IMG/VR virus record: IMGVR_UViG_2571042621_000026 | Strand: one strand, 5' to 3' | From: a virus | Lineage: Duplodnaviria; Heunggongvirae; Uroviricota; Caudoviricetes | DNA: 40,800 nucleotides | Shown here: piece by piece, positions 2,071 through 40,232 of the stretch | Layout of the letters: each line of letters opens with the position of its first letter | Numbering within the stretch: the first letter of the stretch is position 1 | The notes under the pieces: model-generated | Told to the model about the DNA's origin: nothing | The model's input: only the letters and a program-made list of their open reading frames with translations | Database searches by the model: none | Translations under genes and position numbers: made by a program

Positions 2071-3458
2071 GCTATACCTCTCTTTTTCATGGCATCGAGC
2101 AGGATGTCCTGCACTGTTCGTTTTGAGTTGCGCCGCTCCATCACCATTTCGTCCATAGTGTCGGCAGCAATAATGTGGTGAATAAATACCGGACGATTGT
2201 GTCCGGCCTGTATCTGTCTGGTTGGGCCGATACGTTCAATAATTTGCTGATATTGCTCCAGGTCCCACCAGTGTGAGAAAAATACCAGTATATTTCCGCC
2301 GTCCTGCATGTTCAGACCGTGGCCCGCGCTGGCTGGGTGTGCAAAGAGAACAGGAATCTTTCCGGAATTCCAGTCACGTAGTGTCTGTGGATCCTGGTCG
2401 AGGTGACGACCGCGAGGAAATGCTTTAAGCAAGCGTTCAAGATCGTGTTTCCAGTGATAAGCAACCAGCACAGGTGCGCCAGCTGCTTCGGTCAGTATGC
2501 TGTCCAGCGCCTGTAGTTTGGTGTCATGCAGTTCTGACCAACTTCCGGTGTCATCTGTGTATACTGCGCCGCTGGCGATTTGCAGACACTTCAGTGTCTT
2601 TGCCGCGGCGTTCGGTGCTTCGATGCCTTCGCCATTCAGCTCGAGGTACATTTCCTTTTCCATTTCACGATACTGCTGACGGGCCTTCGGCGGCATATCC
2701 ACGCGGATTACGTTATGGATGGGGTCTTTGATATCGAACCAGTCGGCCGCATCCAGCGAGAGGGTCACATCGGCTAACGCTCGCTGTATTTCACCCTGTG
2801 AGTGAGCAAAAGGCTCCAGTTTGGTCCAGCTCTGCCCCGGAAACTGTATCGATTTGAACCAGCGTGAGGTAAACGCGCCGTAAGTGCGCCCGAGACGTTG
2901 CCCCTGGTCCACAAACCACGATTGTCCCCACAAATCTACCAGGCCGTTCGGTGCTGGCGTACCGGTGAGATTTATCCAGCGCCGGACATACTTGTGCGCC
3001 ACTTTGCCCAGCGCCGCCGCGCGCTTACCACCACCTCGCAGCCGGAAGGATTTTAGCCGGGTGCTTTCATCTGGAATGACAGTACCGAACGGCCATCGTT
3101 CTCCCAATTCTTCAACCAGCCAGACAAGGTTATCGTAGTTGATTGTGAACACGCTCGCGTTGCTGTTCGCCAGCGCTGTAGAGCGCGCTTTGGCGTTACC
3201 GATGATCGGCTGTACCTCAATATTACGCAGATGCCCCCATTTAACAGCTTCATCAGGCCAAGTGCTTGCTGCAACGCGTAGCGGCGCGAGGACCAGCGCG
3301 GGGCGTGTTTCTGCTCCAGCCATGAAAAGATCTTCCAGCGTGGTGAGTGTCGCTACGGTTTTACCCATCCCCATCCCTGCCCAGATGTTGCCGCGCAGGG
3401 GCTCGATTTGATGATTGATGATGAGATCTTGGTAGGGACGTGGTTTAAAAGTTATCAT
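2067..3458 (-). CDS. SNF2/DEAD-like superfamily II helicase (phage replication)
   Basis: 463 aa with Walker A (GMGKT) and a DExx box (VIPDESTRLKS), plus a C-terminal helicase domain. ATG at 3456-3458. Confidence 0.75.
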   Translation of the reverse strand: MITFKPRPYQDLIINHQIEPLRGNIWAGMGMGKTVATLTTLEDLFMAGAETRPALVLAPLRVAASTWPDEAVKWGHLRNIEVQPIIGNAKARSTALANSNASVFTINYDNLVWLVEELGERWPFGTVIPDESTRLKSFRLRGGGKRAAALGKVAHKYVRRWINLTGTPAPNGLVDLWGQSWFVDQGQRLGRTYGAFTSRWFKSIQFPGQSWTKLEPFAHSQGEIQRALADVTLSLDAADWFDIKDPIHNVIRVDMPPKARQQYREMEKEMYLELNGEGIEAPNAAAKTLKCLQIASGAVYTDDTGSWSELHDTKLQALDSILTEAAGAPVLVAYHWKHDLERLLKAFPRGRHLDQDPQTLRDWNSGKIPVLFAHPASAGHGLNMQDGGNILVFFSHWWDLEQYQQIIERIGPTRQIQAGHNRPVFIHHIIAADTMDEMVMERRNSKRTVQDILLDAMKKRGIA

Positions 3459-3481
3459 GAAGAAAATCCCTGATTAGAAAG

Positions 3482-4084
3482 GTGCTCTTGAACATCATGA
3501 ATGTAAAAGATTTATCAATTACAACGGTTCTCTTGGCCGCCCTTTATTTTATGGCTTTTTCTTTTTACAAAGGGTACAGCTCATTTTATGGATTCCCTGT
3601 AAGTTTTATTTCTATTGGGATTGAGGAAATAGTTAAATTTTCTGTTATTGCATTAGGACTTTTGTGCACCTTAGTCGCTTTGCTGCATATTGATACTGAA
3701 GAGAAGAATATTCCATGGTGGGTGTATTTATTTTTCTTCATTTTGGCCTCTTTGCTTTCATACTGGACAATGTATTTATATGGCGGTAGCTCATACCTTT
3801 ATGAAAAATCCATAAGGGATGTGGCTACCCAAGCAATACTGTTGGGATTTATTAGCCCTATCAGTGTCAGGGCAGTATCTGTTTTTATTAGGAATGAATT
3901 TAGAATAAAAAACAAAACTCATGGGGTTATGCTTTTTATATCTATAGCAATGCTTCCTTCAGTCCTTGGGTGGGCATGGGCATACTTATCAGATGAGCCT
4001 CTTTTTTATTCTAAAAAATATGATGCTTATATTATCGAAAGCTATAACGGAAAATTTGTCTTGGGGAACTGTAAAAAAAAATAG
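3482..4084 (+). CDS. Hypothetical polytopic membrane protein (moron, opposite strand to the operon)
   Basis: 200-aa ORF with about 5 hydrophobic helices and a lysine-rich C-terminus. Low GC by eye. It runs against the flanking minus-strand genes. The start is GTG at 3482 or ATG at 3497. Confidence 0.5.
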   Translation: MLLNIMNVKDLSITTVLLAALYFMAFSFYKGYSSFYGFPVSFISIGIEEIVKFSVIALGLLCTLVALLHIDTEEKNIPWWVYLFFFILASLLSYWTMYLYGGSSYLYEKSIRDVATQAILLGFISPISVRAVSVFIRNEFRIKNKTHGVMLFISIAMLPSVLGWAWAYLSDEPLFYSKKYDAYIIESYNGKFVLGNCKKK

Positions 4085-4989: not shown

Positions 4990-7053
4990 TTAATCCTTAC
5001 GGTAGTGGTACGCCTCAAAACCGCCAGCGTTCAGTGGGATATCGGGCGCCCATTCGGGGTTAGTGGAGAGAAGTGCGGAAAGCGCTTTATCGTTGAAATC
5101 TTCTGTGTCAGGTGCTTCGGTGATCACCTCGTCGTGTACCGTCAGCACAATGCTGTAACCGGCATCTTCGATAAGCGGCATGTTTCCGGCCAGAATGTCG
5201 CGGGCGGCCGCCTGGGTGATGTTCTCCACCAGCTTTCCGCCGTAGGTTTTGAGTCGTTGCCATTTACGCGAATAAGAGTTAACCCCCATGTAGGTGATAT
5301 TCCCTTTTTCGATAACCGGAGACGGGTAGCATACAGCGCGTCCGGATGGTAGCTGTATGCGCAGCCACGCGCCATCGCGGCGGATTTTAAGATAACCGCA
5401 ATACAATGTTTTTTGCGGTGTGGCGATTGCAGTGCGGACGGTGCGCTCCAGTTCGTACCAGAAATCACAGGTCGCGGGATGCGCCCGGCGCCAGAGACGT
5501 TTAAGTGAGTCGCAGGCGATAAATACCCGTTCAGAAAGCCCGTAGGTTGACTTGCGTTTAACCGATTCGTCGTACCAGCTTTTCGCCTCGCGGATAACAT
5601 CGCGGGGAATGTTTGGTAGTGCGGCGTTCGCCAGCTCGTCGAGATCGAGACCGTAAACCAGTGCAAAAGTGATGAAGGCCGACACACCACCACCATAACC
5701 CAGACCGAGTTCCATGACTTTACCGATCTGACGCATGTGTTTATCAACATCATCTGGTGCAATATCGAAAGCTTTTGCATACGCCAGTTTATATAAGTCC
5801 GGACCCGTTCCGGCGTCGTACTCTCTGAATGCATTCAGTTTCCATTCTTCTCCTGCCAGCCATGCCAGCATACGGCCTTCAATGTTCGACAAGTCACTTA
5901 CCACCAGTTTTTTGCCTGTTGGCGCGATAATGCAGCCACGTAACGCTGAACTGGTTAGTTCCATGATATTGTCAAACAGCAGGTCTGCACATCCGGCTTT
6001 CAGTGCTTCGATGCCTTCGTCTATTTGTTCCTGTTTTAGTGAAGGGCGGGGAAGATTCTGGGGCTGGAATAGCCGTCCGGCCCAACGACCGGTACGTGAC
6101 GCCCCGCAGAACTGTAGCGTACCGCGTAAGCGCCCGTCGTGGCTTACGCCTTTCATCAGTGCCTTGTATTTACTGGTGCTGGTAGTACTGGCCTGCAGTC
6201 GGATAGCCAGCAGTTCTTTCACGGCAGATGGTAAATCGGGGTCGGCAATACGACGTTCCAGAGTACTGCGTTGCATGTCTGGTAGCTCCACACCGTAGGA
6301 TTCAACAATGTGCTTAATCAACGCGTCTCGTTGTGTGGCTGCCTGCACTTCGCCATCAGTCATTTCCTGTGTACGCTTTGCTAGGCGCTTTTGTTCCTGG
6401 TCTACCGCTTCGATCGCAGCGCGTGCGAGTTGCATGTCCATGCAGACGCCCCGGTCATTGATCTGCTGATCACGATGCCAGAGCGCCAGTTCTGTCCCCT
6501 GATAATTCCACTTCGGCAGACGTTTATAGACTTCGCGCATTGCCTCGATATCCAGTCCGGCGTAAGCAACAAAGCGCCGCCATTCTTCCGGGTGGGTTTT
6601 ACTGGTGGCCCGACGCAGTTTGCTGTTTTTCGGGCGTGGCTTACAGAACAGCTGGATCAGCGCTTTACCTTCTTTGTCCTTCGCTTTGTCTTGCGGGACG
6701 CCTAGTACTTCGCAGAGTTCCCCCAGAGACCCCGGGAGACCGTGCGCCAGCGCCTGCACCATCGTGTCGCGCCAACGTTCGACTGGCGGTGCCAGTCGCG
6801 GCATTGCATAACGCAGAACGGTGCGGTCGAAGTGAGAGTTATGGAAATAAAGCAGGGTTTCAGGGTCTGCGATTGCTTCGTATAAGCCGTGTGGAATACC
6901 ACCACCGGCAGTGATATCCCACACGTTTACTGGCCCGTCGTTGATAGCCCATGCGAAAAGCATCACTTCAACGCCTTCGGCATACGCATGGGTACCGTTG
7001 TTGATCGGAATGTCACAATAGGTTTCCAGGTCGCCCCATAGTATATTGGACAT
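4990..7053 (-). CDS. Family A DNA polymerase (Pol I-like, with 3'-5' exonuclease domain)
   Basis: 687 aa with an N-terminal exonuclease-like region and a C-terminal polymerase region. Strong SD (GAGGA) 8 nt upstream of the ATG at 7053. Confidence 0.85.
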
Positions 7054-7114
7054 AAAATATCCTCATATGGTATATGGTTAAATGCTAGATATCATGAATT
7101 AAAGGAGACAACTA

Positions 7115-7804
7115 ATGACTGTGGGTAATAAGAGACAGCCTAATGGATTACCTGAATATTATTGTCACCGTGGTAACGACATAAAAGATGCGATAGTTCG
7201 GGATTTTATTATTCAGCCTGTTGCACACCTGAAACTTATTACTGGACAAACTAAAACCAGTTATTCCGGTTATCCGTTAACCGATCAGTACTATTGTTTT
7301 TCATTTAAAAAACGCTCTGATGAAAATTGTACAGGGGCTTTTTTCTGTGGTAGAGATGTTGCAAAGGATTTCATTCGGCGTATCGGTTGTACAGAGCTGC
7401 CGTTATTTAATCCTATGAAATCGGATACCAGTGCAGCAATAGAACGTTCCGGTTCTGGCTCAGGTAGTTCTGGTATTACTGTCAAGCCAAATGCTGACAA
7501 AAAGCTATTTATAGACGCAGCTCGTCTGTTAATGACGCTGTGGGATTCAACAAGTAAGGGACAAACCCCACTGGCGTCGGTTCTTAATGAAGCAATTTCT
7601 GGTGGTATAGATAAACCTCCAGAAATTAGACATGTAGTGGCGGTTAATACAATGTTGGGTAACACAAAAAATACTTTAACTGGTTTGCTGGATAAAGCAA
7701 GAGCGAAGTATCCTGATGTGTTATTCAGAGATTTTGATTTCACGCCTCTTAACGAGATTGTAAAACGTTCAAAATCATATAATAAGCATCCCCCTTGTTA
7801 TTGA
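7115..7804 (+). CDS. Hypothetical protein, two-domain, Cys-rich N-terminus (moron)
   Basis: 229-aa ORF with a strong SD (AAAGGAGA) 6-7 nt upstream of the ATG. Low GC by eye. Opposite strand to the early operon. An internal GSGSGSSG linker separates two domains. Confidence 0.6.
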   Translation: MTVGNKRQPNGLPEYYCHRGNDIKDAIVRDFIIQPVAHLKLITGQTKTSYSGYPLTDQYYCFSFKKRSDENCTGAFFCGRDVAKDFIRRIGCTELPLFNPMKSDTSAAIERSGSGSGSSGITVKPNADKKLFIDAARLLMTLWDSTSKGQTPLASVLNEAISGGIDKPPEIRHVVAVNTMLGNTKNTLTGLLDKARAKYPDVLFRDFDFTPLNEIVKRSKSYNKHPPCY

Positions 7805-8439
7805 GTATCAGACACTGTATTGGTAGGAAGGCCTATCATTTCATTTAATGTCTCTCGATGTACTGCTGGTGCTAAAGGGACTGGCGGTGCGTCTGTTGGA
7901 AGCAGTTCTTTAGCTTCGGGCCATACATCCAGTAATCGTTTTACTGTCCGAACTTTATTTAGAGCCGCGCTGACATTCTGTATGATTTCGGTTTCATCAC
8001 TTTTAATTTGTGTGTAGAGAGCATCAAAGCTATAAAACTCCGTTACCAGAGGATCTTCGCCAAGTAGAGTAAATTCTGCAGGTGCTATTTTATTAATATG
8101 CTCGGGGGCTCCTGATTCATAACCTCTGTAGTTGCCATTGAAATAAATGTTTGCTCTGGCTCCAGCCAGATTGAGATATATGCAGCAATCTTTTCGAATT
8201 AAAGAACTATTGGTTTTTAATGCTTCGGGTAATTTTGATACCAGTGTTTCTATTTTTTTTATATTTTTTAATATTTCAGCGTCTTTCTCTACGCCCCCGA
8301 TAGCTGCAAGCCGAACACGTTCGGCCCATTCAACACGAGCAGCTCGTAGTGCTGATTTACGTTTGGGGATACCCGCTTTCTCAAGTGCGTTATTGATGAT
8401 TTGAGTTTTAAGGTGATTAGTTAATACGGGCTGTGACAT
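7798..8439 (-). CDS. Hypothetical protein (low-GC accessory gene)
   Basis: 213 aa from the ATG at 8439, which has GAGGGA upstream; the ORF could extend to 8469. Its 3' end overlaps the convergent 7115..7804 gene by 7 bp. Confidence 0.55.
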   Translation of the reverse strand: MSQPVLTNHLKTQIINNALEKAGIPKRKSALRAARVEWAERVRLAAIGGVEKDAEILKNIKKIETLVSKLPEALKTNSSLIRKDCCIYLNLAGARANIYFNGNYRGYESGAPEHINKIAPAEFTLLGEDPLVTEFYSFDALYTQIKSDETEIIQNVSAALNKVRTVKRLLDVWPEAKELLPTDAPPVPLAPAVHRETLNEMIGLPTNTVSDTQ

Positions 8440-8490
8440 TATTCTTTCCCTCATGAGATACCCCAGCACGTAGCTGGGGGATGAATATTT

Positions 8491-9039
8491 TTAAATCAGT
8501 GCTTCAGCATCAGCACCTTCGCTGATATCGTCGAAATCGTCAGCGCTTGCCACTCCGCCGCCAGCGAATGCATCGCCGTCTCGCAGGAACTGGACTCCGC
8601 CGAGTGAGGCATTAATGCGTTTACCGAAATTATTGTCCTGTGCCCAGATATCGATAACGGCGTTTACATAGCACCCTGCATAGGGACGTCCATCAGCCTG
8701 AATTAGTGGCGAACGATCGCGATCAAGAACAGCTGGGCGCGCTTTGTTAGCAGCGTTCAGGAAGAAATTGCCGGGAAAGCCTTCATACTCTGCTTTTTCA
8801 TCACCATCATGCAGGCACAGATTGAGTTTTTTCTCCAGCTGGTTATAAATGGACTCCCACTTCTCCCCCCATTTTTCCTTCGCTACCTGCTTCATAGCTT
8901 TACGGATTTCTTCCAGTTGTGGGTGTTTGGGAGACATTAAAAATACTGCGGAGAAACGCGGATCGCCTTCGCCGTTTACAGTTTTAGCTTCAAACAGAGA
9001 CGGGAAGGCCAGACGAACATTGTTCAGCTTCAGTTTCAT
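8491..9039 (-). CDS. DUF2815-like phage single-stranded DNA-binding protein
   Basis: 182 aa with an acidic C-terminal tail (DDFDDISEGADAE) typical of SSB partner-binding tails. AAGGA SD. Sits in the replication operon beside the polymerase. Confidence 0.6.
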   Translation of the reverse strand: MKLKLNNVRLAFPSLFEAKTVNGEGDPRFSAVFLMSPKHPQLEEIRKAMKQVAKEKWGEKWESIYNQLEKKLNLCLHDGDEKAEYEGFPGNFFLNAANKARPAVLDRDRSPLIQADGRPYAGCYVNAVIDIWAQDNNFGKRINASLGGVQFLRDGDAFAGGGVASADDFDDISEGADAEALI

Positions 9040-38502: not shown

Positions 38503-38692
38503 TCTCAATCAGAATGGGTTCTCCCTTCTCGTTAACAGATATTTCCATTCCTTCAGGGATTTCAGATGCAGTAAAAAACCAGTTATCTTCTGGTAATTCA
38601 ACAGCCCCGGTCACGTCATGAAGACCGGGGATTACTTCAGTCAAAGTAACAGGATTAAACAGGCGCACAATAAACCCTCCAGGAAAAAGCAT
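38471..38692 (-). CDS. Alternative (inverted-orientation) tail fibre assembly/chaperone candidate (U'-like)
   Basis: 73-aa minus-strand ORF inside the invertible segment, downstream of the alternative fibre C-terminus. Unusually short. Confidence 0.35.
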   Translation of the reverse strand: MLFPGGFIVRLFNPVTLTEVIPGLHDVTGAVELPEDNWFFTASEIPEGMEISVNEKGEPILIEIKPSQEELAR

Positions 38693-38998
38693 TTATTGAT
38701 GGTGTTCCGTCGTACATCTGGCAGCGGACATAAAAACCGGTATTAGTGACCTGGTCATCCACGATCATTGAAACGTGAACGTTATTAGATGTGCCCCCAT
38801 AATCCGATCCTATTCTTTCCGCTATGCTGATAAAACGTGAAAGCTTAGGTAGCGCAATTGGATAAACGACTTTAGCCAGTCCATTATCATTAGAACCCCC
38901 CGTTCCAAAGACTTCTATTGCACCATCTGACCAGCGTATCCACGCACCATTGGCATTAGCTCCTCGCTGAATGACATATCTGGCTTCTCCCAAACCAA
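38655..38998 (-). other. Alternative tail-fibre variable C-terminal coding segment (S'v-like)
   Basis: Minus-strand reading frame that runs through the right gix site (...VGLGE|ARYVIQRG...). After inversion it would be fused to the constant part of the fibre gene. Confidence 0.5.
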
Positions 38999-39010
38999 CG
39001 TTTATGAAAA
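38985..39010. repeat. Right gix-like recombination site
   Basis: TTCTCCCAAACC-AA-CGTTTATGAAAA. Resembles the Gin/Hin/Cin/Pin crossover-site consensus as recalled, and is inverted relative to the left site. Confidence 0.6.
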
Positions 39011-39064
39011 TGAAGAAATAACAAGCAAATGGCATCATTCCTGCTTTTACTAGGGGGATCCACC

Positions 39065-39379
39065 ATGCTTATTGGCCACGTACGCGTATCAACAAATGAC
39101 CAGAACACCGATCTACAACGTAATGCGTTGAACTGTGCAGAATGCGACCGGATTTTTGAAGACAAGATAAGCGGTACAAAGTCCGAAAGGCCGGGACTGA
39201 AAAAACTGCTCAGGACATTATCGGCAGGTGACACTCTGGTTGTCTGGAAGCTGGATCGGCTGGGGCGCAGTGTGCGGCATCTTGTCGTGCTGGTGGAGGA
39301 GTTGTGCGAACAAGGTGTTAATTTTAGTAGTTATGTTATTACAGGTGGGGGATTTCTCCCCCTTATGCAGATTTTCTAG
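39065..39379 (+). pseudogene. Truncated Gin/Pin/Hin-family serine DNA invertase (catalytic N-terminus only)
   Basis: MLIGHVRVSTNDQNTDLQRNAL...DTLVVWKLDRLGRS... resembles invertase residues 1 to about 88. The similarity ends after GVNF and the ORF stops 17 codons later, so the C-terminal HTH DNA-binding domain is missing. Confidence 0.7.
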
Positions 39380-39383
39380 TTAA

Positions 39384-40232
39384 CTATTGGCGAAGTGGCC
39401 ATATTTTTCTGTTTTTTAAAAAACTATCTTCAACTATATAACTGCAACAATGTTCACTAAGGCCATAAAAACTAATTATTCCATATTTATGAGAAGCTAT
39501 ATCAGACAGTTCTGCTAATACTGTGGCAAGCCAACGAGCGATGCTAAGAGAATAGAATCTTCCCCACTTTTGAACAATGGTATTTTGTCCAGTACGGATG
39601 GAGGATGATATAAGGTCTTGCATAATGTTGGTACTTTCATTCATATACATGACCGTTGTATACGGTGAAAGAGTGGCATTGATAAACCTAGCATTTTCTT
39701 CAACACGTCTTTGTTCAACTGTATAATAATAATAATGTTTTTCAAGGATACTCTCGGCTACTTCTCCCCACCATTTATTAATAGGTTCATTATTGGTTAA
39801 ATTGGGGCTGCTTAATGAGGAGAAATTTGCGTAACGTCCCCGTCGGGCATCAGCAAAGGAATCTAAACATTCAAGTATTTTGTAGGTAATTTTATGTGTA
39901 GGACGTGAATATCTCAGAGATAGTTGCATTTTTTTAGAAATACTATCAACCTCGTTGGTTAATTCAATGAGCTTATGTCCAAATTTTCTTACAATATTCT
40001 CGTCAGGCATTTTCCCTTTGTGTTCAATGGAATAGTGTGCAACAAGTATTAGTTTAGCAAGTCTCTCAAAACCTACAGAAAGCCCAAAAAATGCTGTGTA
40101 ATATTCACCTATTTTGTCTGCATAATTGGCTTTACCTATGGCTGTTGCCCCAGAACCAATGAGCTGTGTAACTAAAGATGCTTCTCGGCCCAGAGCGTGC
40201 CATGCTGGAATATCCCAGGGATTTTTATTCAC
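39384..40232 (-). CDS. Hypothetical protein in the AT-rich cargo block
   Basis: 282-aa ORF. GTG start at 40232 with AAGGA 10 nt upstream. Low GC. No motif recognised. Confidence 0.5.
   Translation of the reverse strand: MNKNPWDIPAWHALGREASLVTQLIGSGATAIGKANYADKIGEYYTAFFGLSVGFERLAKLILVAHYSIEHKGKMPDENIVRKFGHKLIELTNEVDSISKKMQLSLRYSRPTHKITYKILECLDSFADARRGRYANFSSLSSPNLTNNEPINKWWGEVAESILEKHYYYYTVEQRRVEENARFINATLSPYTTVMYMNESTNIMQDLISSSIRTGQNTIVQKWGRFYSLSIARWLATVLAELSDIASHKYGIISFYGLSEHCCSYIVEDSFLKNRKIWPLRQ

What the first reader, a model, noticed from the sequence alone, without database searches (positions are those of the whole stretch)
7054..8480. Low-GC convergent gene pair inserted in the replication operon
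Two ORFs with good ribosome-binding sites, 7115..7804 (+, 229 aa) and 7798..8439 (-, 213 aa), converge with stop codons overlapping by 7 bp. They sit between the DNA polymerase and SSB genes and look much lower in GC than the flanking replication genes. The plus-strand gene runs against the operon and has a Cys-rich N-terminal domain, a GSGSGSSG linker and a separate C-terminal domain. Neither protein matches a family I recognise. Early-operon morons of this kind often encode anti-defence or defence functions.
Basis: partly seen in the sequence, partly recalled or inferred. Interest (0 to 1): 0.6.

Follow-up and report, generated by a model that had tools for sequence, protein, structure and literature searches.

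The report
Accessory gene inside prophage replication operon
An E. coli prophage carries, in the middle of its DNA-replication operon, a backwards-facing gene from an uncharacterised protein family. It sits next to a regular but fast-evolving operon gene (Nmad5) and is a reasonable but untested candidate for a host-protecting "moron".

Summary
Two convergent ORFs, 7115..7804 (+) and 7798..8439 (-), overlap by 7 bp. Their GC is 0.39/0.41, against 0.48-0.54 in the flanks.

The minus-strand gene is Nmad5 (Pfam PF18757, E 1e-55). It lies in its usual in-line position between the Enc34-type SSB and PolA. Nmad5 is AT-richer than both flanks in 33/33 related loci, so its low GC does not mark an insertion.

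Only the plus-strand gene (ORF A) is cargo. It belongs to the uncharacterised family UCP028583 (PF27729), sits in a hypervariable Nmad5|PolA slot, and has a conserved promoter-like element of its own. The family is basic and shows no conserved catalytic residues. It has no solved-structure match and is absent from 50,697 phage records. It recurs near SIR2, ToxN, type I R-M and GTPase conflict systems, and on plasmids and ICE-like elements.

In Dickeya, Enterobacter and a third, low-GC contig, ORF A is the only intact gene left between relics of PolA and Nmad5. These copies are under purifying selection (dN/dS about 0.13-0.16).

ORF A and Nmad5 travel together as one recombination cassette, but they are not an obligate pair. 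The best guess is a stand-alone, lysogen-expressed, host-protective protein. Its function is untested.

The parts
7115..7804 (+). ORF A. A 229-aa basic protein of the uncharacterised family UCP028583 (Pfam PF27729). It is counter-oriented accessory cargo in the Nmad5|PolA slot. The N-terminal a/b domain covers residues ~14-100, the disordered Ser/Gly linker 105-123, and the C-terminal helical bundle 125-217.
   Evidence: ORF and RBS. Homologues carry the precomputed PF27729 assignment. The profile search found 429 clusters (50% identity) at E<=0.001. AF2 models have pLDDT 78 (full length) and 95 (N domain). ORF A is absent from sister phages with near-identical flanks.
7046..7082 (+). Promoter-like element conserved upstream of ORF A. 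It reads TTGGACA (-35-like, overlapping the PolA start codon on the other strand), about 17-18 nt, then TGgTATATGGTTAA (extended -10-like).
   Evidence: The element is conserved in six different contexts. These include the chromosomal orphan copies that no longer have PolA. The simple consensus scan did not call it. Part of it is also the PolA Shine-Dalgarno on the minus strand. Its function is inferred, not shown.
7821..7848 (+). Terminator-like hairpin plus T-rich tail, 17 nt after the ORF A stop codon and inside the 3' end of Nmad5.
   Evidence: Consensus scan only. The number of such sites in the region (4) is not clearly above the shuffled expectation (2.2 +/- 1.5).
7798..8439 (-). Nmad5 (Pfam PF18757, phrog_1965), 213 aa. 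It is an in-line gene of the replication operon in its canonical position downstream of the SSB. This allele is AT-rich and fast-evolving.
   Evidence: Pfam E 9.9e-56 and PHROG E 7.9e-58. RefSeq names it 'Nmad5 family putative nucleotide modification protein'. Its position is conserved in about 30 modules. Its GC is lower than the flanks in 33/33 loci.
7054..8490 (.). Exchangeable low-GC interval, from the PolA start codon to the SSB stop codon. It recombines as one unit between related prophages.
   Evidence: The breakpoints against phage 689R2 fall exactly at the PolA ATG and the SSB stop. L023-26, L032 and L033 have 98-100% identical flanking proteins but an 80% Nmad5 allele and different cargo. 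In L109 the flanks are 92-93% identical, while ORF A and Nmad5 are both 73%.
8461..8479 (.). Perfect GC-rich hairpin (CCCCAGC-ACGTA-GCTGGGG) between the SSB stop and the Nmad5 start, at the right border of the exchangeable interval.
   Evidence: Read from the sequence. An analogous but different hairpin sits at the same place in phage 689R2. No T-run follows on the operon strand, so it is probably not an intrinsic terminator. Its role is unknown.
4990..7053 (-). Family A DNA polymerase (context). Its start codon lies head-to-head with ORF A, 61 bp away.
8491..9039 (-). Enc34-type ssDNA-binding protein (DUF2815) (context). It lies upstream of Nmad5 in the operon.
   Evidence: Pfam PF10991, E 2.4e-44.

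Best explanation
SHOWN:
- The window is an E. coli prophage integrated next to yfhL.
- Its early replication operon runs on the minus strand in the order P300, DUF2800 nuclease, Enc34-type SSB, Nmad5, PolA, ANR, DUF4406, VRR-NUC, SNF2.
- Nmad5 (7798..8439) is a regular member of that operon. It evolves fast and is AT-rich.
- The junction between Nmad5 and PolA is about 100 bp in many relatives. In others it is a hotspot that holds varied cargo, mostly counter-oriented and low in GC.
- In this prophage the cargo is ORF A (7115..7804). It is a single autonomous gene of family UCP028583.
- The whole SSB-stop to PolA-start interval, meaning this Nmad5 allele plus ORF A, is swapped between prophages by recombination in the conserved flanks. 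That explains why the two genes share low GC and equal divergence without depending on each other.

INFERRED:
- ORF A is transcribed from its own sigma-70-type promoter (7046..7082), independently of the repressed early operon and antisense to it. It would therefore be made in the lysogen.
- It is a non-enzymatic, basic, two-domain protein that binds nucleic acid or a protein.
- Its most likely role is to benefit the host by excluding or aborting other phages or mobile elements.
- It may do so by binding a component of the invader's DNA replication or entry machinery stoichiometrically, as prophage proteins such as BstA or P2 Tin do.
- The target and mechanism are unknown.
For: Architecture:
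- Nmad5 is identified by Pfam and PHROG hits.
- The gene order SSB-Nmad5-PolA is conserved on one strand in about 30 IMG/VR and genome loci. The Nmad5-PolA gap is about 100 bp in at least 11 of them and holds variable cargo in the others.
- Nmad5 GC is below both flanks in 33/33 loci.

ORF A is autonomous cargo:
- It is present in 26 of 158 E. coli genomes that carry this PolA.
- It is replaced by an unrelated transmembrane protein in 689R2-type phages whose aligned flanks are 97% identical.
- Homologues at 56-57% identity occupy the same head-to-head position at PolA, but with DUF2303 instead of Nmad5 beside them (L015, L016, L099).

Own promoter: a 37-bp element is conserved upstream in six contexts, including copies without PolA.

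Host benefit:
- In Dickeya zeae, Enterobacter hormaechei and a third contig, ORF A is the only intact gene.
- All three keep an upstream relic of the PolA N-terminus (translated for L003 and L097: SNLLWDELET / LSNILWDALE against [11 protein letters not shown]; read from the DNA for L108).
- A downstream relic of the Nmad5 C-terminus (RRETLDEMIGLRAD against HRETLNEMIGLPTN) is clear in L003, weaker in L097, and not evident in L108.
- The three share one unit of about 0.88 kb in three unrelated chromosomal sites.
- They evolve with dN/dS 0.125-0.157.

Conflict-type neighbourhoods:
- Embedded in a type I R-M operon together with HigB.
- Next to SIR2 genes in two unrelated settings, with ToxN also present on the plasmids.
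- Next to a GAP1/DO-GTPase system.
- In an integrase island that also carries a cytidine/dCMP-deaminase-family gene (PF00383).
- 5 kb from a gene with a Lamassu LmuB C-terminal domain (PF12532).

Other points:
- Another variable slot of the same operon in sister phages holds a TIR protein that matches the PADLOC candidate PDC-S35 at E 1e-108.
- The family has no hit in 50,697 phage records or in PHROGs. It is therefore not a typical lytic-phage gene.
- No polar residue is invariant over 36 diverse members, and the median pI is 8.9.
Against: - There is no experimental or expression data.
- The promoter is inferred from conservation only. The consensus scan missed it, and part of the element doubles as the PolA ribosome-binding site.
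- No PADLOC, Pfam or PHROG defence model matches ORF A.
- No effector domain, transmembrane segment or catalytic motif is present.
- Neighbourhood evidence comes from about 20 hand-inspected contexts out of 429 clusters. It is not a statistical enrichment test.
- Several contexts are co-directional with a methyltransferase, an ArdC-like zincin or a topoisomerase on ICE-like elements and plasmids. These fit an establishment or anti-defence role just as well.
- The three orphan copies share one truncated unit. They therefore represent one relic that spread, not three independent domestications.
Confidence: 0.42

Rival explanations
1. ORF A is an anti-defence or establishment factor. In this view it is a small non-enzymatic protein that mobile elements use to protect or establish their incoming DNA, for example by binding DNA or inhibiting a host immune protein.
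For: - It is small and non-catalytic, with two domains and a flexible linker.
- On ICE-like contigs it is co-directional with a DUF4942 methyltransferase, UDG, Ros/MucR, HU and a RecD2-like helicase.
- On Pectobacterium and Hafnia plasmids it lies next to an ArdC-like zincin.
- On a C. perfringens conjugative plasmid it follows a topoisomerase.
- On Vibrio pSEA2 it precedes a large methyltransferase and a helicase.
- Rare fusions to DUF5710 and to a cold-shock-like domain suggest nucleic-acid binding.
Against: - In the prophage it faces against the early operon, so it would not be co-expressed with early genes on infection or induction.
- It persists under purifying selection as the sole intact gene of prophage relics. 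An anti-defence gene has no phage left to serve there.
- It is absent from 50,697 phage records.
- It is basic, so it is not a DNA mimic.
Confidence: 0.2
2. ORF A and Nmad5 form a functional two-gene system. Examples would be an effector with its modulator, or a defence gene paired with a self-immunity gene.
For: - The stop codons overlap by 7 bp.
- All 26 ORF A-bearing E. coli genomes have Nmad5 annotated beside it. The number carrying the matching low-GC Nmad5 allele is also 26.
- In prophage L109 both genes are 73% identical to the window while the flanks are 92-94% identical. The two genes therefore co-diverge, and they keep a 4-bp overlap.
- Their GC3 values are equal, 0.283 and 0.285.
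- A point mutation in the nmad5 gene of Dhillonvirus phages lets them escape Tmn defence (PMC11846954). Nmad5 is thus itself involved in phage-host conflict.
Against: - Co-divergence follows simply from the two genes sharing one recombination interval bounded by the conserved SSB and PolA genes.
- Only 6 of the 80 retrieved Nmad5 loci carry ORF A. Nmad5 keeps the same position in all modules.
- ORF A homologues lack an intact Nmad5 in every other context. These include three prophages where DUF2303 replaces it, and relics where Nmad5 has decayed but ORF A is intact and under selection.
Confidence: 0.1
3. ORF A is a DNA-binding regulator or nucleoid-associated accessory protein of mobile elements. 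It might tune PolA or replication-operon expression, or silence foreign DNA. It would have no direct role in conflict with other elements.
For: - It is basic in both domains, with a median pI of 8.9.
- It sits head-to-head with PolA in four diverged prophage lineages. Its promoter region overlaps the PolA translation start.
- Its transcript would be antisense to operon read-through.
- On an ICE-like contig it neighbours Ros/MucR and HU.
Against: - It is dispensable: absent from 84% of E. coli prophages with this PolA, and from sister phages.
- It is retained where PolA has been deleted.
Confidence: 0.18

Closest known systems
Nmad5 (Pfam PF18757, 'nucleotide modification associated domain 5'; phrog_1965)
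   Same: The minus-strand ORF matches the whole Pfam model (residues 6-205 against positions 3-206 of 206, E 1e-55). It sits in a phage DNA-metabolism operon.
   Different: Nothing distinguishes it from the family. Its biochemical function is only a computational prediction. The one experimental report concerns longer Dhillonvirus homologues that lie near the capsid gene. In those phages a K-to-E change escapes Tmn defence, while deletion does not (PMC11846954).
UCP028583 (Pfam PF27729), an uncharacterised conserved protein family
   Same: ORF A and all its homologues carry this precomputed assignment. The same two-domain architecture of about 200-230 aa runs across 429 clusters.
   Different: The family has no described function, structure or literature. 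It is missing from the local Pfam copy, PHROGs, NCBIfam and PADLOC.
BstA, a prophage-encoded single-protein abortive-infection defence of Salmonella and E. coli prophages (PMC8585504)
   Same: BstA is a single cytoplasmic protein encoded by a prophage and expressed in the lysogen. According to that paper's abstract it acts at sites of invading-phage DNA replication. This is the functional model proposed here for ORF A.
   Different: No sequence or fold relation was found or tested. ORF A is smaller and has no recognisable DNA-binding domain. No self-immunity element was looked for. ORF A's activity is untested.
Classical prophage morons and cargo hotspots (lambda rexAB; P2 old, tin and fun; P2/P4 defence hotspots). 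This comparison comes from general knowledge, not from a tool.
   Same: The gene has atypical GC, is counter-oriented, and apparently has its own promoter and terminator. It occupies a fixed inter-gene slot whose content varies among otherwise near-identical prophages.
   Different: The slot lies inside the essential replication operon, between Nmad5 and PolA, rather than at a genome end or beside the immunity region. Operon transcripts must therefore read through the cargo in antisense.
PDC-S35, a PADLOC candidate single-gene TIR system
   Same: It occupies a neighbouring variable slot (ANR|PolA) of the same operon in sister phage vB_EcoM-689R2, with E 1e-108. This shows that the operon's slots can hold candidate defence genes.
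   Different: It is unrelated to ORF A in sequence and is co-oriented with the operon. It is itself only a candidate system.
DUF151 / TM0160 bifunctional-nuclease fold (PDB 1sj5)

Membership tests
Nmad5 (PF18757) | Full-length match to the Pfam HMM above the gathering threshold | tested here: met
   189.5 bits against a cut-off of 27, E 9.9e-56, covering model positions 3-206 of 206. phrog_1965 matches at E 7.9e-58.
Nmad5 (PF18757) | Location in a phage or prophage DNA-metabolism gene neighbourhood | tested here: met
   It lies between the Enc34-type SSB and PolA, in the order DUF2800-SSB-Nmad5-PolA-VRR-NUC-SNF2. That order recurs in about 30 loci.
Nmad5 (PF18757) | A nucleotide- or DNA-modification activity | not testable with these tools
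   This is only a computational prediction in the family description. No biochemical data were found.
UCP028583 (PF27729) | Match to the family HMM | tested here: met
   The identical protein P0001 and all 16 other homologues carry the precomputed PF27729 assignment. The local Pfam copy lacks the model, so I did not see the score itself.
UCP028583 (PF27729) | Shared architecture: an N-terminal a/b domain ending in LPLFNP, a variable linker, and a C-terminal helical domain with a VNT motif | tested here: met
   Alignment of 36 diverse members. The profile search recovered 429 clusters, mostly 200-230 aa and matched end to end.
Prophage moron (autonomous accessory transcription unit) | Present or absent among otherwise near-identical prophages | tested here: met
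   ORF A occurs in 26 of 158 E. coli genomes with this PolA. Sister phages have flanks 97% identical but hold a different gene.
Prophage moron (autonomous accessory transcription unit) | Base composition unlike the surrounding genes | tested here: met
   GC 0.393 and GC3 0.283, against 0.48-0.54 and 0.44-0.57 in the flanks.
Prophage moron (autonomous accessory transcription unit) | Own promoter and terminator, with expression in the lysogen | tested here: inconclusive
   A conserved -35 / extended -10-like element travels with the gene in six contexts. A terminator-like hairpin follows the stop codon. The consensus scan did not call the promoter, and no expression data are available.
Known or candidate anti-phage defence systems (PADLOC-DB v2.0.0) | Match to a defence-protein HMM | tested here: not met
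   The only hit is a chance-level match to IetA (E 0.032). No consistent hit appears across 36 family members.
Two-gene system (ORF A + Nmad5) | Co-occurrence of the two genes across relatives | tested here: not met
   They co-occur only in the window lineage and in L109. Only 6 of the 80 retrieved Nmad5 loci carry ORF A, and the ORF A homologues in other contexts lack an intact Nmad5.
Zinc-finger / Cys-rich metal-binding domain | Conserved Cys/His ligands | tested here: not met
   The positions of C17, C61 and C78 vary across the family, and no Cys or His column is invariant.
DNA-mimic anti-restriction proteins (Ocr/ArdA type) | A strongly acidic protein | tested here: not met
   ORF A has pI 9.2 and the family median is 8.9.
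DUF151 bifunctional nuclease | Same fold with a conserved active site | tested here: inconclusive

The most novel reading that the evidence does not exclude
UCP028583 would be a new, widespread family of single-gene, non-enzymatic anti-phage or anti-MGE immunity proteins with a fold not seen in the PDB. It would be carried as a self-contained cassette of about 0.9 kb (promoter plus gene). That cassette can sit inside a prophage replication operon, survive prophage decay, and spread between genera.
Probability: 0.3. Interest if true: 0.6.

Novelty: new member of a known kind. Interest (0 to 1): 0.4.

Why it matters
The analysis corrects the picture. The 'pair' is one ordinary, if poorly understood, operon gene (Nmad5) plus one true accessory gene.

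The useful outcome is a concrete and cheap test object. It is a 229-aa protein from an uncharacterised family of about 430 clusters, with no solved-structure relative. It is mobile on prophages, plasmids and ICE-like elements, lies next to several immune systems, and is kept under purifying selection after its prophage has decayed.

If it protects the host, it adds a new non-enzymatic immunity family. It would also show that even the interior of an essential phage replication operon serves as a cargo hotspot.

The finding that Nmad5 is consistently the fastest-evolving and most AT-rich gene of this replication module fits the report that nmad5 mutations let phages escape Tmn defence. That makes Nmad5 worth studying as a conflict interface in its own right.

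Tried and rejected
Searches on ORF A that found nothing useful:
- Pfam, PHROGs, NCBIfam and PADLOC gave no hit.
- Repeating the Pfam, PADLOC and PHROG scans on 36 family members gave only single-member chance hits, apart from one true DUF5710 fusion.
- Foldseek against BFVD found nothing at E<=0.001.
- HMM searches of the PDB with both family profiles found nothing.
- The AFDB library was not available.
- Literature searches found nothing for UCP028583, PIRSF028583, PF27729, WP_000215799 or the sister-phage names.
- The Iyer et al. 2013 paper that defined Nmad5 is not held.
- The search for related loci with the broad family alignment failed because no stretch was conserved enough.
- The genome-contig scan for Nmad5 gave only 3 loci.

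Ideas considered and rejected:
- A zinc finger in the 'Cys-rich' domain: the ligands are not conserved.
- A DNA mimic: the protein is basic.
- Low GC of Nmad5 as evidence of insertion: it is a family trait.
- The two genes as an obligate pair: the co-occurrence test failed.
- The orphan cassette as a transposon-like unit: no terminal direct or inverted repeats were found.
- The cargo of the same slot in other prophages as known defence genes: there were no PADLOC or Pfam hits except one HNH homing endonuclease and DUF2303.
Full report
OBSERVATION

The two ORFs exist as described. ORF A is 7115..7804 (+, 229 aa), with AGGAG 7 nt upstream of the ATG. The second ORF is 7798..8439 (-, 213 aa from the ATG at 8439). 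Their stop codons are TGA at 7802-7804 on the plus strand and TAA at 7798-7800 on the minus strand. The ORFs therefore overlap by 7 bp.

They lie between a family A DNA polymerase (4990..7053, -) and an Enc34-type ssDNA-binding protein (8491..9039, -; Pfam PF10991, E 2.4e-44).

The GC drop is confirmed by calculation:

| Feature | GC | GC3 |
|---|---|---|
| ORF A | 0.393 | 0.283 |
| Minus-strand ORF (Nmad5) | 0.408 | 0.285 |
| Neighbouring replication genes | 0.48-0.54 | 0.44-0.57 |

The interval 7054-8490 has GC 0.398. Only 1.4% of equal-length windows in the 40.8 kb are as low.

WHERE THE WINDOW COMES FROM

The window is identical to a prophage integrated next to yfhL in E. coli 97-3250 (NZ_CP027599) and 25 other complete E. 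coli genomes.

The early operon runs on the minus strand. Its order is a 300-aa protein, a DUF2800 PD-(D/E)XK nuclease, the SSB, the 213-aa ORF, PolA, ANR, DUF4406, VRR-NUC and an SNF2 helicase.

THE MINUS-STRAND GENE IS Nmad5, A REGULAR OPERON MEMBER

It matches Pfam PF18757 (Nmad5) over the whole model (E 9.9e-56) and phrog_1965 (E 7.9e-58). RefSeq already names it that way.

I fetched 80 IMG/VR loci that encode Nmad5 relatives and mapped the window's proteins onto them. In about 30 loci, with PolA 69-100% identical, the order P300-DUF2800-SSB-Nmad5-PolA-ANR-VRR-NUC-SNF2 is kept on one strand. Nmad5 always comes directly after the SSB.

In 33 of 33 distinct loci Nmad5 has lower GC than both the SSB and PolA, by 0.077 on average. 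In 32 of 33 it is more diverged from the window's copy than both flanks. Low GC and fast divergence are therefore traits of this gene family. They are not signs that the gene was inserted here.

Nmad5 is not universal, however. Among the 158 E. coli genomes with this PolA, megablast finds an Nmad5 in 58. Of these, 26 carry the window's allele and 32 carry an allele about 82% identical. The sister phages vB_EcoM-689R2, 606R2 and 611R5 lack it.

Its function is only a computational prediction. The single experimental paper I found concerns longer homologues in Dhillonvirus phages (PMC11846954):
- A K-to-E substitution in nmad5 lets the phage escape the Tmn defence system.
- Deleting the gene does not.
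- Attempts to clone the gene failed, apparently because it is toxic.

That fits a gene at a phage-host conflict interface, and so does its rapid evolution.

THE PLUS-STRAND GENE IS CARGO IN A HOTSPOT

In at least 11 loci the gap between Nmad5 and PolA is only about 100 bp. In the others it holds varied content:
- Small transmembrane or secreted proteins of unknown family on the opposite strand, with gap GC 0.34-0.38 (L023, L006, L053, L055).
- An HNH/NUMOD4 homing endonuclease (L029).
- Multi-gene inserts of 2.6-2.9 kb (L038, L045, L046).

In the 689R2-type phages the aligned flanking DNA is 97% identical, with PolA 98% and SSB 99% identical at protein level. Homology to the window breaks exactly at the PolA start codon and at the SSB stop codon. 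The interval there holds one unrelated 209-aa membrane protein. ORF A is present in 26 of the 158 E. coli genomes with this PolA.

The whole interval behaves as one recombination cassette:
- Loci with 98-100% identical SSB and PolA proteins carry an 80% Nmad5 allele and different cargo (L023-26, L032, L033).
- In prophage L109 the flanks are 92-94% identical to the window, but ORF A and Nmad5 are both 73% identical. They are again convergent, with a 4-bp overlap.

This accounts for the equal GC3 and the tight linkage of the two genes without any functional coupling.

THE TWO GENES ARE NOT AN OBLIGATE PAIR

ORF A homologues at 56-57% identity sit in the same head-to-head position at PolA in three further prophages (L015, L016, L099). 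There the neighbour is a DUF2303 protein plus a 125-aa protein, not Nmad5. All other ORF A relatives I inspected have no intact Nmad5 nearby. Conversely, only 6 of the 80 retrieved Nmad5 loci carry ORF A.

WHAT ORF A IS

The identical protein and all its homologues carry the precomputed Pfam assignment PF27729 'UCP028583'. That model is newer than the local Pfam copy, which gave no hit. PHROGs, NCBIfam and PADLOC gave no hit either.

A profile search of 1.84 billion representative proteins found 429 clusters at E<=0.001. Nearly all are 200-230 aa and match end to end.

The AlphaFold model has pLDDT 78 and pTM 0.76. The N domain alone reaches pLDDT 95. The model shows three parts:
- An N-terminal a/b domain of helix, three strands and helix, ending in the conserved LPLFNP motif.
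- A disordered linker of 17-35 residues with variable composition.
- A five-helix C-terminal bundle.

Over 36 diverse members the only invariant residues are G79, F98 and N178. No polar residue that could be catalytic is conserved, and the cysteines are not conserved. The family is basic, with a median pI of 8.9. Rare members are fused to DUF5710 (E 9e-17) or to a weak cold-shock-like domain.

I read this as a non-enzymatic binding protein, possibly one that binds nucleic acid.

OWN EXPRESSION SIGNALS (INFERRED)

The 61-bp spacer between PolA and ORF A, together with the first PolA codons, contains the element TTGGACA-N17-18-TGgTATATGGTTAA (7046..7082). It is conserved upstream of ORF A homologues in six different contexts. 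These include chromosomal copies where PolA is gone.

The element looks like a -35 box plus an extended -10 box. The simple consensus scan did not call it. On the other strand, part of it is the PolA Shine-Dalgarno sequence. A terminator-like hairpin follows the ORF A stop codon at 7821-7848.

If the promoter is real, ORF A is transcribed independently of the repressed early operon and antisense to it. Operon transcripts would have to read through ORF A in antisense to reach PolA.

ORPHAN COPIES

ORF A homologues 70-72% identical to the window occur alone in unrelated chromosomal sites in three assemblies: Dickeya zeae (L003), Enterobacter hormaechei (L097) and a third, low-GC contig (L108).

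Upstream, all three keep a relic of the PolA N-terminus. The translated relics are SNLLWDELET in L003 and LSNILWDALE in L097, against [11 protein letters not shown] in the window. The L108 relic was read from the DNA.

Downstream, L003 keeps a clear relic of the Nmad5 C-terminus: RRETLDEMIGLRAD against HRETLNEMIGLPTN. L097 shows a weaker trace, and none is evident in L108.

The three copies share one unit of about 0.88 kb, running from about 155 bp upstream to about 35 bp downstream of the ORF. I found no terminal repeats. They are 87-90% identical to each other, with dN/dS 0.125-0.157 at unsaturated dS of 0.36-0.50.

ORF A therefore works without Nmad5 and without the phage, and it is maintained by selection in the host. 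Because the three copies share the same truncated unit, this is one relic that spread, not three independent domestications.

NEIGHBOURHOODS OF THE WIDER FAMILY

Contexts near immune or conflict genes:
- Inside a type I R-M operon, after a HigB/HTH pair.
- Next to SIR2 genes in two unrelated settings: the Dickeya chromosome, and Pectobacterium and Hafnia plasmids. On the plasmids ToxN and an ArdC-like zincin are also adjacent.
- Next to a GAP1/DO-GTPase conflict system.
- In an integrase island with DUF1848 and a cytidine/dCMP-deaminase-family (PF00383) gene.
- 5 kb from a gene with a Lamassu LmuB C-terminal domain (PF12532).

Contexts on other mobile elements:
- On ICE-like contigs with a DUF4942 methyltransferase, UDG, Ros/MucR, HU, a RecD2-like helicase and a lytic transglycosylase.
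- On a C. perfringens conjugative plasmid after a topoisomerase.
- On Vibrio pSEA2 before a large methyltransferase and a helicase.

tblastn found 29 plasmids with a family member. It found no hit in 50,697 phage records.

In sister phage 689R2 another variable slot of the same operon holds a TIR protein that matches the PADLOC candidate PDC-S35 at E 1e-108.

These are conflict-type and mobile-element accessory contexts. The sample is about 20 loci inspected by hand, not a statistical test. It does not separate defence from anti-defence.

MOST LIKELY EXPLANATION

Shown:
- Nmad5 is a canonical operon gene.
- ORF A is autonomous cargo in the Nmad5|PolA hotspot.
- The interval recombines as a unit.

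Inferred, with about 0.4 confidence: ORF A is expressed in the lysogen from its own promoter and benefits the host. It would act as a non-enzymatic exclusion or abortive-infection protein that binds some component of an invading element. The functional model is prophage proteins such as BstA (PMC8585504).

Four points support this reading:
- The orientation against the operon.
- The promoter that travels with the gene.
- Survival under purifying selection after prophage decay.
- Absence from sequenced phage genomes.

The rivals are listed below with their estimated confidence. Together with the best explanation these sum to 0.90. The remainder is for no function or something not considered here.

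| Rival | Confidence | Main support or weakness |
|---|---|---|
| Anti-defence or establishment factor | 0.2 | Favoured by the ICE-like and plasmid contexts |
| DNA-binding regulator | 0.18 | Basic protein sitting head-to-head with PolA |
| True ORF A-Nmad5 two-gene system | 0.1 | Disfavoured by the co-occurrence test |

VERDICT

Half of the 'pair' is a known family in its normal place. The other half is a new member of a familiar kind, a prophage moron, drawn from an uncharacterised family with some attractive features. Interest is moderate at 0.4. The function is untested, and the tests are cheap.

Noticed in passing
window 3482..4084 (+): A second counter-oriented, very low-GC ORF (GC 0.347, 200 aa, several predicted transmembrane segments) lies between the SNF2 helicase and VRR-NUC genes of the same operon. 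It has no Pfam, PHROG or PADLOC hit. In sister phage 689R2 the same slot holds a different 304-aa protein with weak TIR similarity (PADLOC E 1e-6). This is a second cargo hotspot in the operon.
   Followed up: partly
L001 (phage vB_EcoM-689R2, ON470582) 3105..3866 (-): In the sister phage, the stretch between the PolA end and VRR-NUC (where the window has its ANR and DUF4406 genes) carries a TIR-like protein. It matches the PADLOC candidate single-gene system PDC-S35 at E 1e-108. This is a third variable slot of the replication operon.
   Followed up: partly
window 39384..40232 (-): A low-GC 282-aa ORF with no Pfam or PADLOC hit lies at the right end of the prophage. It sits just beyond a truncated serine invertase (39029..39379, Resolvase N-terminal domain) and an inverted tail-fibre C-terminal fragment (38655..39038). 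This is another moron candidate, beside a decayed tail-fibre inversion switch.
   Followed up: partly
window 8461..8479: A perfect 7-bp GC-rich hairpin (CCCCAGC ACGTA GCTGGGG) lies between the SSB stop and the Nmad5 start, exactly at the right border of the exchangeable interval. Phage 689R2 has a different hairpin at the same place. No T-run follows on the operon strand. Its role is unknown; it could be an RNA processing or stability element, or a recombination border.
   Followed up: no
L003 7846..8722; L097 6846..7722; L108 5863..6694: A unit of about 0.88 kb (PolA relic, promoter, ORF A homologue, and a short downstream stretch that in L003 preserves the Nmad5 C-terminus) is shared at 85-87% DNA identity by Dickeya zeae, Enterobacter hormaechei and a third contig. 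It lies in three unrelated chromosomal sites and has no terminal repeats. How it moved is unexplained.
   Followed up: partly
33 distinct Nmad5 loci among L002-L069: Nmad5 is the most diverged and most AT-rich gene of the DUF2800-SSB-Nmad5-PolA module. Its GC is below both flanks in 33/33 loci, and it is more diverged than both flanks in 32/33. This suggests diversifying pressure and fits the published escape from Tmn defence through an nmad5 point mutation in Dhillonvirus phages.
   Followed up: partly
L103 1116..1907; protein P0169: Rare UCP028583 members carry extra domains. One has a C-terminal DUF5710 (E 9e-17), in a locus next to a GAP1/DO-GTPase system. Another has an N-terminal cold-shock-like segment (weak, E 0.03). 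Both hint at nucleic-acid binding.
   Followed up: no
L015 6222..6998 (-), with L016 and L099: In three prophages a DUF2303 (YfdQ-like) protein plus a 125-aa protein take the place of Nmad5 between the SSB and the ORF A homologue. Nmad5 and DUF2303 may therefore be alternative occupants of the same operon position.
   Followed up: no
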